From a virus (taxonomy: Duplodnaviria; Heunggongvirae; Uroviricota; Caudoviricetes), in IMG/VR virus record IMGVR_UViG_3300029841_000319, positions 1 to 10,544 of that record: a DNA stretch of 10,544 nt; one strand, 5' to 3'. How positions within the stretch are numbered: the stretch's first letter is position 1; each line of letters starts with the position of its first letter. Below, one piece after another: positions 6,001-9,000 of this stretch. The position numbers are program-made.

Positions 6001-9000
6001 CATAACTTGTTACCTCGGTCTGTTACTGTTGAGGTAATAATTATGCTTATTTGGTTTGGTGTCAATAGATATGAGTTAAAAAAATTACCCGTAAGGTAAT
6101 CTATCTGGCAATAAAAAAGCCGCCAGAAGGCGGCTTACTTACTGAAAAGTATGATTTTATTGTTTGTTTTTTTCGTTCTGGTTGATGACAAATTCAATGT
6201 AACTTTCGATCTTTGCTTTCTCGGTTTCGGGTAACAATGCGTAGCGCGAGCGGTCATAGTTGATGGTCGCAGGGTCGTGCGGGTGAATCAGTAATTCATA
6301 GCCGTGACGCCCGAATGCGGATGCAACATTCTCCAGGGTGGAAATGGAAACGCTGACCTCATTGTTTAACAGGCGACTGATTGTCACCTGGGCGACGCCG
6401 GATGCGCGGTGAAGTTTTCCCTGCGTTGAAAGGTCGCGGCTTTCGCTCATCCAGCGTTCCAGGTTGTGAGCCGCCAGCTGACCAATGTCGCTTGGGCCGA
6501 CAGGCTGAAAACCTTCCTGAGAAAGCGAGCGATCGATATCAAGCCAGTTACGGGGTTTATTGGCGGCAGCTTCAATTTTTCGTGCAACCTGGTCGCCGAT
6601 AACCTTCTTGCCAAGAGCCCAGCGGTTTACCAGATTTGCCTGAGTTCCAAGTTTTTCTGCCATCCGCGTCTGAACACCATTGAATTCACGGTCGATCAAG
6701 TCGTTGAGATTTTGCCTGCGGACGTCCTGGATACTTTTCATTTTCTGGAAAATCGCCTCATATATGAATCAGTAGATGATTCAATTTAAAGCAATATTAC
6801 CCAACAGGTAAATGCACCTCATAGGTAACTATCCTTGATTTTTGTTACCTTATGGGTGAATATTTATTATCTGAAATAAATATCAGGCAATAGCTATGAG
6901 CGATAACGGACATTTCGATTTCAAAAAGCACTGGCTTGCACTTACTCCGGATGAGCGTGAAGCCTTCGCACAGGAAGCCGGAACGACGAGTCACTATATC
7001 CAGACTCACTTAACAGGTAAGCGCAAAATGCCAGGTAAGGTATTGATGAATGGGCTTTTTAAAGCCTGTAAAACAAGACAATGGCTGCGCTCAAAAGCAG
7101 AACTGGCATACTTCTTCTACTCATGATATCCAGCTACAACCCTCTGTAGACCGCCACCCGGCGGTCTTTTCATATCTATTCGTACCTCAAAGGTAATAAA
7201 AAACCAAATCTGGTTGATCTTTTTTTTGTGTCAGCACAAAATGACCGTAATCCCAATACTAATAACAGGGCTTACCATGGAAATCATTACACGTATTGAT
7301 GCCGCAAAGCGCGGACTTAAACGCTACTACACCGGAAAACCATGTAAGCATGGACATGACAGTGAACGCTGGGTTTACAACGGACACTGTGTTGAGTGCA
7401 CCATGGAATCAAACCGTCGCATCAGGGCAGAGATTAAGCAGATCATGATTAATTCCTCCCCACAACACTCAAGCTGATAGCGGAGATTAATCATGAGCAG
7501 ACATGCAACAGATTGGGCCTGGGAGACAGATCCAGGTAGCTCATCATTAAAGCTCATACTGCTCTCGATGGCTGACAGAGCCGATGAATATAACCTCTGC
7601 TACCCCAGCATAGAACGCCTCGTTAAAGACACTTGCCTGAATAAAAAAACCGTGCAGGCCGGGCTTATATCGCTCATGAAAATGGGGCTTATTTCAGATA
7701 CCGGAGAGAGAAAGGGAGTGACAAAAAGAGTGCGGGTTTTCTCTCTTAATATAACCAAAAACGGGAACATTAAAGGCAACCTAGAAGGGTGTAATGAACC
7801 CGAAAACGGTAATGTTCCCGAAAACGGGAATATACCCAAAAACGGGATGTTGAATGATCCCAAAAACGGGATGTTGAATGATCCCAAAAACGGGATCCAG
7901 AACCAGTCATATAACCAGTCATTTAACCAAGAGAGGGAGAGCAGGACAAAAACCGGGGATTCTGTGCCTCATGACCCCGGCGCAAACAACGCCGTGATGA
8001 ATAACTTTGTTCCTCCTGGTGGGCCAGGGCAATTAGGCAAATTTGTCATGCATGAACAATGGCAGCCATCAGATGACTTTCTTCGGAAAAGCTCATTGCA
8101 GGGAATCTACCTGGACAGTCTGCCAACGGCACAGGAACTTGCAGAGTTCAGAATTTACTGGATGGCTGAGGGTAAGGCATACCATCAGGCACAGTGGGAG
8201 CAGAAGCTGGCAAGGCGCATCCAGTTCTGTAGACAGAAATCAGGTGAAGTCAGAAAGAGCCTTGACTGGCATAACACTGACTGGATAGATGAGGTGTGGG
8301 ATGAAATCAACTCCAGAACTTCTTAATGAGTACGATCGCTTTCGTGGTGGGCATGACCACTCGACGGCGGTTGCTTCTGCTGACGATGAAAGGGCAAAGA
8401 AGGAGCAGGTTGCAAGAATTTTCAACGAAATGTTTGTCCAGTTACAGGCTGCATTTCCAGGCAGCATCGCTGCTATCAGCGAGCAAGGAAAGCTAAACGA
8501 ATTTCGAAAACAATGGATGCTTGCGTTTCTGGAGAATGGGATCACAACAATGGAACAGGTTAACGCTGGTATGCGCCACGCCCGCGCCAGTGAATCTCCG
8601 TTCTGGCCGTCGCCAGGGCAATTTATCAAGTGGTGTAAAGACAGCAAGATGGTTCTTGGCGTCACCATTGACGATGTGATGGCGGAGTTTCACCGGTACA
8701 GCAAGGAAAAAAGTTTATATCCTGGTGGTCCCGAAAGATTCCCGTGGCGACATCCGGTTATGTACTGGGTCGTATGTGATACCCGCCGTGCAATGTATCA
8801 GCGCCAGCTTAGCGAGATTGAGGTTGAGAAACACGCGCGCAGGCTGCTCGATGATTGGGCGAAAAAGGTGGCTTCCGGACAGCAGATACCCGATCCGGTG
8901 ATCAGCATACAGGCAAAGCCAGAACCCATGAGTACACCTCCGGACACAGGGAGAGACGTTTACCATCCACCAGGGCGAAGTTTCGGGTGCATGCCTAACG

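What the first reader, a model, noticed from the sequence alone, without database searches (positions are those of the whole stretch)
6796..6860. Tripartite OR-like operator with two directly abutting dyads
Three dyads lie between the divergent repressor and Cro-like genes, at 6796-6812, 6813-6829 and 6844-6860. The first two abut with no spacer, unlike lambda operators, which are separated by 6-7 bp. Match quality falls from left to right, which suggests graded affinity. Abutting sites would impose unusual cooperativity geometry on a repressor that has two HTH regions per chain.
Basis: partly seen in the sequence, partly recalled or inferred. Interest (0 to 1): 0.55.

Follow-up and report, generated by a model that had tools for sequence, protein, structure and literature searches.

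The report
Repressor operator cluster, phiV10-like prophage
The three dyads are real, evolutionarily conserved binding sites for the lysogeny repressor of a common phiV10/epsilon15-type E. coli prophage, so this is the control region of an already-studied repressor family, whose unusually tight site spacing probably reflects a four-armed (tetrameric) repressor and not two DNA readers on one chain.

Summary
The window is the immunity region of a phiV10-like Uetakevirus prophage, present in about 10% of complete E. coli genomes.

- Three TTACC-N5-GGTAA dyads lie at 6797-6811, 6814-6828 and 6845-6859.
- The first two abut as 17-mers.
- They far exceed chance: 7 near-perfect sites in the window against 0.17 expected, and a triple cluster in 0 of 1500 simulations.
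- In 16 lineages (repressor identity down to about 41%) the centre spacings are always 17 bp, then 30-31 bp. The half-sites are fixed and the N5 spacers drift.

**One detail is wrong.** Match quality does not fall from left to right. The middle site is the weakest (19.8, 5.2 and 13.6 bits).

**The repressor belongs to a known family.** It is a full-length homologue of Salmonella phage SPC32H Rep (PDB 5d50, E = 4e-42).
- In that protein the second HTH-like domain is a dimerisation domain.
- DNA is bound by a tetramer through paired N-terminal domains.
- So the idea that two HTH regions of one chain span adjacent dyads is not supported.

**Best reading.** O3 sits inside the rightward early promoter. 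O1 overlaps the candidate rep promoter. The weak O2 is probably filled by chelate cooperativity of a tetramer.

This is a new member of a known kind, of modest interest.

The parts
6796..6812 (.). O1. This is the strongest dyad (ATTACCCAACAGGTAAA, core 6797-6811). It overlaps the candidate -35 of the leftward rep promoter.
   Evidence: The core has 0 mismatches and scores 19.8 bits. Its centre lies 61-65 bp upstream of the rep ATG in 15 of 16 lineages, and 55 bp in Serratia.
6813..6829 (.). O2. This is the weak dyad (TGCACCTCATAGGTAAC, core 6814-6828), directly abutting O1.
   Evidence: It has 2 mismatches and scores 5.2 bits. Its centre is always exactly 17 bp from O1. Population SNPs fall only in its N5 spacer, at 6819 and 6821-6823.
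6844..6860 (.). O3. This dyad (GTTACCTTATGGGTGAA, core 6845-6859) lies in the spacer and -10 region of the rightward early promoter.
   Evidence: It has 1 mismatch and scores 13.6 bits. Its centre is 30-31 bp from O2 in all lineages.
6835..6840 (+). TTGATT, the candidate -35 of the rightward promoter (PR-like). Candidate -10 hexamers are GAATAT at 6858-6863 or TATTAT at 6865-6870.
   Evidence: The core TTGAT (6835-6839) is invariant in all 10 aligned lineages. The promoter scan gives TTGTTA-17-TATTAT at 6842-6870. No transcript mapping is available, so this is inferred.
6783..6811 (-). Candidate rep (maintenance) promoter. The -35 is TTACCT (6811..6806), which is the rep-distal half of O1. A 17-bp spacer follows, then the -10 TAAATT (6788..6783).
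   Evidence: A T[A/T]AAT[T/A] hexamer (CTAATT in Superficieibacter) sits exactly 8 bp after the GGTAA half-site in every lineage. This is inferred and not mapped.
6157..6741 (-). rep. This is a 194-aa repressor equal to PhiV10p40 and ZX5 ORF21. It has an N-terminal HTH DNA-binding domain, a flexible linker, an HTH-fold dimerisation domain and a C-terminal oligomerisation domain.
   Evidence: Supported (100% identical in phiV10 and ZX5; 5d50, E = 4e-42). The function was shown by overexpression in ZX5.
6896..7126 (+). Cro-like 76-aa HTH protein (PhiV10p41, epsilon15 gp39 homologue). It is the first gene of the rightward operon.
   Evidence: It matches PHROG 35 'transcriptional repressor' at E = 5.6e-13. 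The AGTTSHYIQ.HLT motif is invariant, and the protein is 76-84% identical across most clades and 58% in the Klebsiella phage. It has no Pfam or PDB match.
6023..6099 (-). OL-type module. Two Rep dyads (6023-6037 and 6085-6099) lie 62 bp apart and bracket the leftward promoter TTGACA(6065..6060)-17-AATTAT(6042..6037).
   Evidence: Supported. The 61-63 bp spacing is conserved in 15 of the 16 lineages, with 75 bp in Serratia. The homologous epsilon15 sites are annotated 'repressor' in GenBank.
7182..7196 (.). Single Rep-type dyad (GTACCTCAAAGGTAA) just after the terminator at 7148-7167.
   Evidence: Supported. It sits at the same offset, 337 bp from O3, in phiV10 and Tyrion.
9121..9197 (+). Second 62-bp module. 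Dyads at 9121-9135 and 9183-9197 bracket TTGATT(9155-9160)-17-TTTAAT(9178-9183), ahead of the gene starting at 9201.
   Evidence: Supported. The same pair is present in phiV10, Tyrion and epsilon15. One of the two is annotated 'repressor' in epsilon15.

Best explanation
The three dyads are the OR-type operator cluster of the Rep repressor of a phiV10/epsilon15/SPC32H-type temperate podophage (genus Uetakevirus).

**Site recognition.** Each dyad (consensus wATTACC-N5-GGTAATw) is read by a pair of N-terminal HTH domains of Rep. The second HTH-fold domain of the chain dimerises the protein and does not read DNA. The C-terminal domain joins two dimers into a tetramer with four DNA-binding arms on flexible linkers of about 16 residues.

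**Role of each site.**
- O3 lies between the -35 (TTGATT) and the -10 of the rightward early promoter. Its occupancy shuts off the Cro-like gene and the replication genes.
- O1 covers the candidate -35 of the rep promoter, about -28 from the inferred start.
- O2 lies at about -45. Together O1 and O2 set rep autoregulation.

**Cooperativity (inferred).**
- The intrinsically weak O2 is filled because it sits exactly 17 bp from the strong O1.
- This lets the two arm-pairs of one tetramer grip the four half-sites from roughly opposite faces of the helix (chelate cooperativity).
- O3, three helical turns from O2, is held by a further arm-pair.

**Induction (by homology).** An SOS-controlled small antirepressor takes the tetramer apart. 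The repressor is not cleaved.

**What is shown and what is not.**
- Shown here: the reality of the sites, their conservation and geometry; the homology and domain plan of Rep; and the absence of a second motif.
- Taken from literature on the homologue: tetrameric binding and the role of the middle domain.
- Inferred: the promoter assignments and which sites share a tetramer.
For: **Site reality and statistics:**

**Phylogenetic footprint.**
- Spacing of 17 bp and 30-31 bp holds in 16 of 16 lineages, with Rep identity between 41% and 100%. Half-sites are fixed and N5 is variable.
- In 80 loci with identical Rep, SNPs inside the operator cluster occur only in the N5 spacers.

**Same motif elsewhere.**
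- It recurs at other promoters of the window, as 62-bp pairs at PL and before 9201.
- It is annotated as a 'repressor' binding site in the epsilon15 GenBank record.

**Rep identity and domain plan.**
- Rep matches SPC32H Rep over its full length (5d50, E = 4e-42), and the Foldseek top hits are 5d50 and 5d4z.
- The AF2 model gives an N-terminal domain at 1-68, a disordered linker at about 69-84, a second HTH-fold domain at 85-151 and a low-confidence C-terminus.

**Literature on the homologue.**
- Rep has a DNA-binding domain, a middle dimerisation domain and a tetramerisation, Ant-binding domain.
- It binds DNA as a tetramer, the dimer binds weakly, and the arm pairs come from different dimers.

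**Which domain reads DNA.**
- The N-terminal recognition helix NLVNRW is invariant. The equivalent helix of the second domain is 25% identical between clades that share the TTACC half-site.
- The linker varies in length (16-22 residues) while the site spacing stays fixed.

**Other supporting points.**
- A second close pair, 18 bp apart, precedes the small terminase gene in ZX5 and epsilon15. Adjacent dyads are therefore a recurring unit.
- A repressor identical in sequence abolishes free phage when overexpressed. Antirepressor overexpression lowers rep mRNA by 75%, which is compatible with Rep-dependent rep transcription.
- By B-DNA arithmetic, 17 bp corresponds to a rotation of about 223 degrees. 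The inner arms, only 7 bp apart, would therefore sit about 42 A from each other without clashing.
Against: - No binding, footprint or transcript data exist for this phage, so the promoter positions are consensus-level inferences.
- The strongest site (O1) overlaps the candidate rep promoter. This is the reverse of the lambda logic, and it may mean that the rep promoter is misplaced or that the switch works differently.
- Which dyads share a tetramer is undetermined.
  - O2 and O3, 30-31 bp apart and in helical phase, could instead be the bridged pair, by analogy with the in-phase 62-bp pairs.
  - Isolated single sites (7182-7196) show that a dyad can stand alone.
- The Cro-like protein may use the same sites.
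- The primary SPC32H and epsilon15 papers could not be read. The statements about tetramer binding therefore rest on other papers' summaries.
Confidence: 0.75

Rival explanations
1. This rival concerns the pairing variant. The functional tetramer unit would be O2+O3, not O1+O2.
- The two in-phase dyads, about three helical turns apart, would clamp the -35 of the rightward promoter.
- This would parallel the way the 62-bp pairs bracket PL and the promoter before 9201.
- O1 would be a separate, stronger site bound by another tetramer, used for rep autoregulation or for long-range OL-OR bridging.
For: - O2-O3 spacing is conserved at 30-31 bp (about 2.9-3.0 turns), and the PL and 9121/9183 pairs at 61-63 bp (about 6 turns). 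All are near-integral turns and all flank promoter hexamers.
- O1 and O2 lie on roughly opposite faces, by arithmetic on the 17-bp spacing.
- The OL-OR distance is also conserved at 712-724 bp.
Against: - The exact invariance of the 17-bp spacing in 16 of 16 lineages shows selection on close pairing. A second close pair, 18 bp apart, at the terminase promoter points the same way.
- In the phiV10 clade the weak O2 always abuts the strongest site.
- The summary of the SPC32H work speaks of a single tetramer being sufficient for repression.
Confidence: 0.3
2. Each Rep chain would read DNA with both of its HTH regions, so that one polypeptide or one dimer spans the two abutting dyads.
For: - Two HTH-fold regions are present per chain: Pfam HTH_3 at 106-147 and a weaker YdaS-like HTH at 21-61. 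The phiV10 annotation also records 'two helix-turn-helix motifs'.
- The linker of about 16 residues could physically reach a neighbouring site.
Against: - In the solved homologue the second domain is a dimerisation domain, and DNA is bound by N-terminal domain pairs of a tetramer.
- All half-sites are of the same kind (TTACC), and no second conserved motif is present.
- The putative recognition helix of the second domain diverges to 25% identity while the operator half-sites stay identical. The N-terminal helix stays invariant.
- Isolated single dyads and 62-bp pairs use the same motif.
Confidence: 0.05
3. This is a lambda-style switch. Independent Rep dimers would bind each dyad, with alternate pairwise cooperativity between neighbours. 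The Cro-like protein would bind the same three sites with the opposite preference.
For: - The layout is tripartite, between divergent repressor and Cro-like genes.
- Relative to the candidate rep promoter the sites lie at about -28, -45 and -76, close to lambda's OR3, OR2 and OR1 (inference).
- The Cro-like HTH is invariant across clades that share the half-site.
Against: - Centre spacing of 17 bp puts neighbours on opposite faces, unlike lambda's 23-24 bp.
- Rep lacks a LexA/CI-type peptidase domain. It belongs to a family reported to bind as a tetramer, with weak binding by dimers.
- The rank order of site strength differs from lambda.
Confidence: 0.12
4. The dyads would be chance inverted repeats in an AT-rich intergenic region, with no function.
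For: Short dyads are common in AT-rich promoter regions, and O2 alone, with 2 mismatches, would not stand out.
Against: - A cluster of three occurred in 0 of 1500 simulations, and the window holds 7 near-perfect sites against 0.17 expected.
- Position, spacing and half-sites are conserved in 16 lineages while the N5 spacers drift.
Confidence: 0.01

Closest known systems
Rep repressor and Ant antirepressor of Salmonella phage SPC32H (PDB 5d50 and 5d4z; Kim & Ryu 2013 J Virol; Kim et al. 2016 PNAS)
   Same: - The homology is full-length (E = 4e-42, 41-42% identity) and the three-domain plan is the same.
- The gene neighbourhood is the same.
- The three-dyad layout upstream of rep is identical in the near-identical phage SPN1S, with centres at -62, -79 and -109.
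- A candidate LexA-controlled small Ant is present in the 99%-identical phage ZX5.
   Different: - This is a different clade: E. coli phiV10 type, with Rep only about 42% identical.
- O2 is degenerate here (GCACC half-site) but perfect in the SPC32H, SPN1S and epsilon15 clade. There O3 is the weakest site.
- The linker is 16 residues here against 22 there.
- No biochemistry exists for the phiV10-type protein beyond overexpression phenotypes.
Repressor binding sites annotated in the phage epsilon15 genome (GenBank AY150271.2, gp38)
   Same: - The 17-bp motif ATTACC-N5-GGTAAT is the same.
- The OL pair 62 bp apart is the same, as is the site pair after the replication genes.
   Different: The epsilon15 record annotates 7 dispersed sites but none of the three between rep and gp39. 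These are nevertheless present there with the same 17 bp and 30 bp spacing. The phiV10 and ZX5 records annotate no operators at all.
Lambda OR (OR1-OR2-OR3 with CI and Cro)
   Same: - Three dyad operators lie between divergent repressor and cro-like genes.
- One site lies in the lytic promoter, and one overlaps the candidate repressor promoter.
- A weak site stands next to a strong one, which suggests cooperativity.
   Different: - Centre spacing is 17 bp and 31 bp here, against 24 bp and 23 bp in lambda (lambda values from established knowledge).
- The repressor has no RecA-dependent autocleavage domain.
- By homology it acts as a tetramer with four tethered DNA-binding domains, and it is inactivated by an antirepressor.
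- The motif is also dispersed over about 14 sites in the genome.
Multi-operator control by tetrameric repressors with tethered headpieces, for example LacI auxiliary operators and pLS20 Rco
   Same: - In-phase operator pairs flank promoters, at 62 bp, about 6 helical turns.
- The tetramerisation domain of SPC32H Rep has been likened to the looping domain of Rco and p53.
   Different: - Looping by Rep has not been shown.
- The close 17-18 bp pairs have no counterpart in the lac system.
- The comparison is functional only and does not imply family membership.

Membership tests
SPC32H/epsilon15-type Rep repressor-operator system (Uetakevirus immunity region) | The repressor is homologous over its full length to SPC32H Rep. 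| tested here: met
   phmmer against PDB gives 5d50_A at E = 4e-42, covering residues 1-190. The Foldseek top hits are 5d50 and 5d4z. tblastn gives 42% identity to epsilon15, SPN1S and SPC32H Rep.
SPC32H/epsilon15-type Rep repressor-operator system (Uetakevirus immunity region) | Domain plan: N-terminal HTH DNA-binding domain, flexible linker, HTH-fold middle dimerisation domain, C-terminal oligomerisation and Ant-binding domain. | tested here: met
   The AF2 model shows helical domains at 1-68 and 85-151, a disordered stretch at 74-82 and a low-confidence C-terminus. The alignment to 5d50 runs through all domains. The domain roles come from the literature on the homologue.
SPC32H/epsilon15-type Rep repressor-operator system (Uetakevirus immunity region) | Operators of the form ATTACC-N5-GGTAAT at early promoters. 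| tested here: met
   The window holds 7 sites at <=1 mismatch against 0.17 expected. The same motif is annotated as a repressor site in epsilon15.
SPC32H/epsilon15-type Rep repressor-operator system (Uetakevirus immunity region) | Conserved gene context: rep divergent from a gp39-like gene, a recombination operon to the left and replication genes to the right. | tested here: met
   Pfam finds RecT, a PDDEXK nuclease, DnaT-like and lambda P-like proteins. The phiV10, Tyrion and epsilon15 annotations agree.
SPC32H/epsilon15-type Rep repressor-operator system (Uetakevirus immunity region) | DNA is bound by a tetramer whose N-terminal domain pairs come from different dimers. | not testable with these tools
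   This is known only from summaries of the SPC32H work. Testing it needs SEC-MALS or crosslinking of the phiV10-type protein with operator DNA.
SPC32H/epsilon15-type Rep repressor-operator system (Uetakevirus immunity region) | Induction through a small LexA-controlled antirepressor and not by repressor cleavage. | tested here: inconclusive
   There is no LexA box of the form CTGT-N8-ACAG and no ant gene inside the window. In the 99%-identical phage ZX5 a perfect LexA box (CTGTATATTTATACAG) precedes an 85-aa ORF outside the window region, and a 231-aa 'anti-repressor' counteracts lysogeny. Rep lacks a peptidase S24 domain.
Lambda-type OR (CI/Cro tripartite operator) | Three dyad operators lie between divergent repressor and cro genes. 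| tested here: met
   Supported. The Cro-like assignment rests on PHROG 35 at E = 5.6e-13.
Lambda-type OR (CI/Cro tripartite operator) | Operators are separated by 6-7 bp spacers, so that adjacent dimers sit on the same face and interact pairwise. | tested here: not met
   The centres are 17 bp and 31 bp apart, and O1 and O2 abut.
Lambda-type OR (CI/Cro tripartite operator) | The repressor has a LexA/CI-type C-terminal autocleavage (peptidase S24) domain. | tested here: not met
   Pfam finds only HTH families, and the C-terminal half aligns to the SPC32H Rep middle and C-terminal domains.
   Only one half-site class is present, and no extra conserved block exists apart from the promoter hexamers. 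The third helix of the second domain is 25% identical between clades that share TTACC, whereas the N-terminal helix is invariant.

The most novel reading that the evidence does not exclude
The invariant 17-bp abutting pair O1-O2 may be the natural four-half-site target of a single Rep tetramer.
- Its trans-paired N-terminal arms would clamp the DNA from nearly opposite faces.
- A third in-phase site would lie inside the lytic promoter.
- If so, this would be a phage switch built on chelate cooperativity of one tethered tetramer. Lambda-style contacts between separate dimers would play no part.
- The same tetramer logic would be reused at 18-bp and 62-bp pairs across a dispersed regulon of about 14 sites.
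Probability: 0.35. Interest if true: 0.5.

Novelty: new member of a known kind. Interest (0 to 1): 0.3.

Why it matters
This immunity region sits in about one in ten complete E. coli genomes and in relatives across Enterobacterales. Its repressor family has a solved structure and an unusual proposed 'trans' tetramer binding mode.

- **A natural substrate.** The conserved operator geometry defined here gives that model a concrete natural substrate to be tested on. The spacings are 17 bp abutting, 30-31 bp, and 62-bp pairs.
- **A gap in annotation.** The public annotations that I examined mark either no operators in this region (phiV10, ZX5) or only dispersed sites elsewhere (epsilon15).
- **A possible consequence for immunity.** All clades share one half-site and one recognition helix. 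Cross-repression between phages of different genera may therefore be possible, which bears on immunity specificity and on the use of phiV10-type phages as reporter or biocontrol tools.

None of this overturns current understanding.

Tried and rejected
1. **Primary papers not available.** I tried to read the papers most likely to describe these operators: PNAS 2016 (doi and PMC4983836), J Virol 2013 (doi and PMC3807360) and Virology 2007 on epsilon15 (PMC2698709). None is held. I therefore cannot say whether the abutting O1-O2 pair was already drawn there. Citing papers gave only summaries.
2. **Literature searches.** Searches for operator descriptions in phiV10 and Uetakevirus papers found only the ZX5 paper, which has no binding-site data.
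3. **Chance.** This explanation was rejected by simulation and conservation.
4. **Dual-HTH reading.** This was rejected on homology, the single motif class and the pattern of helix conservation.
5. **Alternative rep promoters.** I looked closer to the ATG, around 6759-6775. Nothing with a conserved -10 and -35 was found across lineages.
6. **NCBIfam and PDB searches.** NCBIfam gave only sub-threshold hits for Rep and nothing for the Cro-like protein, and the PDB sequence search of the Cro-like protein found nothing.
7. **IMG/VR scan.** It returned only loci with 100%-identical Rep.
8. **Multimer or protein-DNA structure prediction.** This is not available with these tools.
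Full report
**What the window is.**
- The 1.1 kb around the finding is 97-99.7% identical to phage phiV10, vB_EcoP_ZX5, TL-2011b and other E. coli podophages of the genus Uetakevirus.
- It occurs in 541 of 5426 complete E. coli genomes.
- The minus-strand ORF 6157-6741 is PhiV10p40, annotated 'putative transcriptional repressor, two helix-turn-helix motifs'.
- The plus-strand ORF 6896-7126 is PhiV10p41, the homologue of epsilon15 gp39.
- To the left lie RecT and nuclease genes. To the right lie DnaT-like and lambda-P-like replication genes.

**The observation.**
- Direct reading gives ATTACCCAACAGGTAAA at 6796-6812, TGCACCTCATAGGTAAC at 6813-6829 and GTTACCTTATGGGTGAA at 6844-6860.
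- The 15-bp cores match TTACC-N5-GGTAA with 0, 2 and 1 mismatches.
- The centres are 6804, 6821 and 6852, so the spacings are 17 and 31 bp, and the first two 17-mers do abut.
- Chance is excluded on three counts.
  - The window holds 10 hits at <=2 mismatches against 3.0 expected, reached by 0 of 200 shuffles.
  - It holds 7 hits at <=1 mismatch against 0.17 expected.
  - A cluster of three within 65 bp occurred in 0 of 1500 simulated sequences.
- The one part of the observation that fails is 'match quality falls from left to right'. A matrix built from 31 isolated sites of the family (consensus wATTACC-N5-GGTAATw) scores O1 at 19.8, O2 at 5.2 and O3 at 13.6 bits. The middle site is the weakest.

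**Comparative evidence.**
- I collected the homologous region from 16 lineages whose repressors are 41-100% identical to this one.
  - The lineages are phiV10 type, Enterobacter phages Tyrion and BUCT554, Superficieibacter, Erwinia dacicola, Scandinavium, two Klebsiella, epsilon15, SPN1S, two Citrobacter, Serratia, Raoultella and two divergent E. coli types.
- In every one, three dyads lie upstream of rep with centre spacings of exactly 17 bp and then 30 or 31 bp. In 15 of the 16 the centres fall at -61 to -65, -78 to -82 and -108 to -113. In Serratia all three are shifted about 8 bp towards rep.
- Half-sites are conserved while the N5 spacers differ freely.
- Among 80 metagenomic or isolate loci with an identical repressor there are 16 intergenic haplotypes.
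  - Within the operator cluster every SNP lies in an N5 spacer, at 6819, 6821-6823 and 6854.
  - None lies in the 30 half-site bases.
- This is a clear phylogenetic footprint. Both the sites and their geometry are under selection.

**The motif is a regulon signal, not peculiar to this spot.**
- In the window it recurs in three other places.
  - A pair 62 bp apart (6023-6037 and 6085-6099) brackets a strong leftward promoter, TTGACA-17-AATTAT.
  - A second pair 62 bp apart (9121-9135 and 9183-9197) brackets TTGATT-17-TTTAAT in front of the gene at 9201.
  - A single site lies at 7182-7196, after a terminator.
- The 61-63 bp pair spacing is conserved in 15 of the 16 lineages, with 75 bp in Serratia.
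- The epsilon15 GenBank record annotates seven such sites as 'repressor' binding sites, but none of the three between rep and gp39. Those three are nevertheless present there with 17 bp and 30 bp spacing.
- In ZX5 and epsilon15 a second close pair, 18 bp apart, sits immediately before the small terminase gene.

**The repressor.**
- It aligns over residues 1-190 with the repressor of Salmonella phage SPC32H (PDB 5d50, E = 4e-42). The structure search returns 5d50 and 5d4z as top hits.
- The predicted model has a confident five-helix N-terminal domain (1-68), a disordered linker (about 69-84), a second HTH-fold domain (85-151) and a poorly predicted C-terminus, as expected for an oligomerisation element.
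- Papers that summarise the SPC32H work make four points.
  - Rep consists of a DNA-binding domain, a middle dimerisation domain and a C-terminal tetramerisation, Ant-binding domain.
  - It binds DNA as a tetramer, whereas the dimer binds weakly.
  - The domain pairs that contact palindromic sites come from different dimers.
  - The antirepressor Ant splits the tetramer.
- Within my own data the N-terminal recognition helix (NLVNRW) is invariant in all clades, matching the invariant TTACC half-site. The corresponding helix of the second domain is only 25% identical between the phiV10 and epsilon15 clades.
- The intergenic alignment contains no second conserved motif beyond promoter hexamers.
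- The second HTH-fold domain is therefore very unlikely to read DNA.
- Functional data exist for an identical protein. Overexpressed ZX5 ORF21 abolishes free phage and reduces lysis-gene transcripts by more than 99.9%, and overexpressed antirepressor lowers rep mRNA by 75%.

**How it most likely works.**
- TTGAT at 6835-6839 (hexamer TTGATT in most lineages) is invariant in all aligned lineages and is the best candidate for the -35 of the rightward promoter. O3 fills its spacer and touches the -10. Rep at O3 would therefore block transcription of the Cro-like and replication genes.
- Leftward, every lineage has TTACC(Y), the rep-distal half of O1, followed after 17 bp by T[A/T]AAT[T/A], or CTAATT in Superficieibacter. 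This is a weak promoter.
  - Relative to its start, O1, O2 and O3 would lie at about -28, -45 and -76.
  - That is positionally reminiscent of lambda's OR3, OR2 and OR1.
- These promoter assignments are inferences.
- On B-DNA, 17 bp equals about 1.6 turns.
  - The two arm-pairs on O1 and O2 therefore approach from roughly opposite faces.
  - This also keeps the inner arms, only 7 bp apart, from clashing, with about 42 A between their centres by simple geometry.
- By contrast, 30-31 bp and 62 bp are close to 3 and 6 whole turns.
- A tetramer with four arms on linkers of 16-22 residues can plausibly reach two dyads whose arm-pair centres are about 69 A apart.
- My favoured reading is that the weak O2 is filled through chelate cooperativity with the strong O1 in one tetramer, and that O3 is held by a further arm-pair.
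- The main rival is that O2 and O3 form the bridged in-phase pair across the -35, like the 62-bp modules, with O1 bound separately.
- The data here cannot separate the two readings. I put them at roughly 0.45 and 0.3 within the overall operator model.

**Comparison with known systems.**
- The locus meets every family feature of the SPC32H/epsilon15 Rep system that could be tested.
- It fails two defining features of a lambda-type OR: the spacing, and a CI-type cleavable repressor.
- It works like a lambda OR in outline, with a divergent switch and three sites, but it is not a member of that family.
- The abutting geometry is a property of the whole Rep family and not a peculiarity of this window.

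**Novelty and verdict.**
- This is a real, functional and strongly conserved operator cluster, belonging to a repressor family that already has a structure and a mechanistic model.
- The phiV10-type member and its exact site map are not annotated in any record I saw.
- I could not check whether the primary papers already show the 17-bp pair.
- I rate it a new member of a known kind, with interest 0.3.
- The most novel reading still open is that a single tethered tetramer clamps the abutting pair as the core of the switch. I give it about 0.35 probability, and it would be moderately interesting if shown.

Noticed in passing
window 6871-6886: CTGAAATAAATATCAG is an AT-rich CTG-N10-CAG dyad resembling a weak LexA box. 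It lies between the rightward promoter's -10 and the Cro-like start codon. It is conserved, with changes only in the inner bases, throughout the phiV10-like clade and is absent from the epsilon15 clade. It could be a direct SOS input or the site of another regulator.
   Followed up: partly
window 6765-6783: There is a perfect 7+7 dyad, TGAATCA-N5-TGATTCA, between the candidate rep -10 and the rep start codon. It is unique in the window and partly conserved in the phiV10-like clade, being perfect again with a different N5 in a lineage whose Rep is 65% identical. It may be a site for a regulator other than Rep, for example the Cro-like protein or a host factor. Epsilon15 annotates an IHF site at the equivalent place.
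   Followed up: partly
window 6023-6099 and 9121-9197: Two promoter modules have the same architecture. In each, a Rep dyad is centred about 27 bp upstream of the -35 and another about 35 bp downstream of it, exactly 62 bp apart (about 6 helical turns). This holds in phiV10, Tyrion and epsilon15 and suggests tetramer bridging or looping over the whole promoter.
   Followed up: partly
window 7182-7196: A single Rep-type dyad lies directly after the terminator at 7148-7167 and 25 bp upstream of a TTGATC hexamer. It sits at the same offset from O3 in phiV10 and Tyrion. There may be a Rep-controlled internal promoter for the genes after the Cro-like gene.
   Followed up: no
L104 (phage ZX5) 19625-19657; epsilon15 genome 12-44: A second close pair of Rep dyads, 18 bp centre to centre, lies immediately upstream of, and overlapping the ribosome-binding region of, the small terminase gene. 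There are about 14-15 Rep-type sites per genome, and the epsilon15 record annotates 7 of them.
   Followed up: partly
L104 (phage ZX5) 2089-2383: A perfect LexA box, CTGTATATTTATACAG, lies at 2368, just upstream of an unannotated-function 85-aa ORF (2089-2346, minus strand). The C-terminus of that ORF resembles that of the 231-aa 'anti-repressor' ORF4. It is probably the SPC32H-type small antirepressor of the phiV10 group.
   Followed up: partly
window 6896-7126 compared with 6157-6741: The Cro-like protein is far more conserved between the phiV10 and epsilon15 clades (76% identity, invariant HTH) than the repressor (42%). All clades share the TTACC half-site and the Rep recognition helix, so cross-repression between phages of different host genera seems possible.
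   Followed up: no
window 3853-5552 compared with phiV10 29722-31482: The window has separate RecT (3853-4761) and PDDEXK nuclease (4731-5552) ORFs, as do Tyrion and ZX5. The phiV10 record annotates a single fused 'recET' CDS. This may be a frameshift or an annotation difference in phiV10.
   Followed up: no
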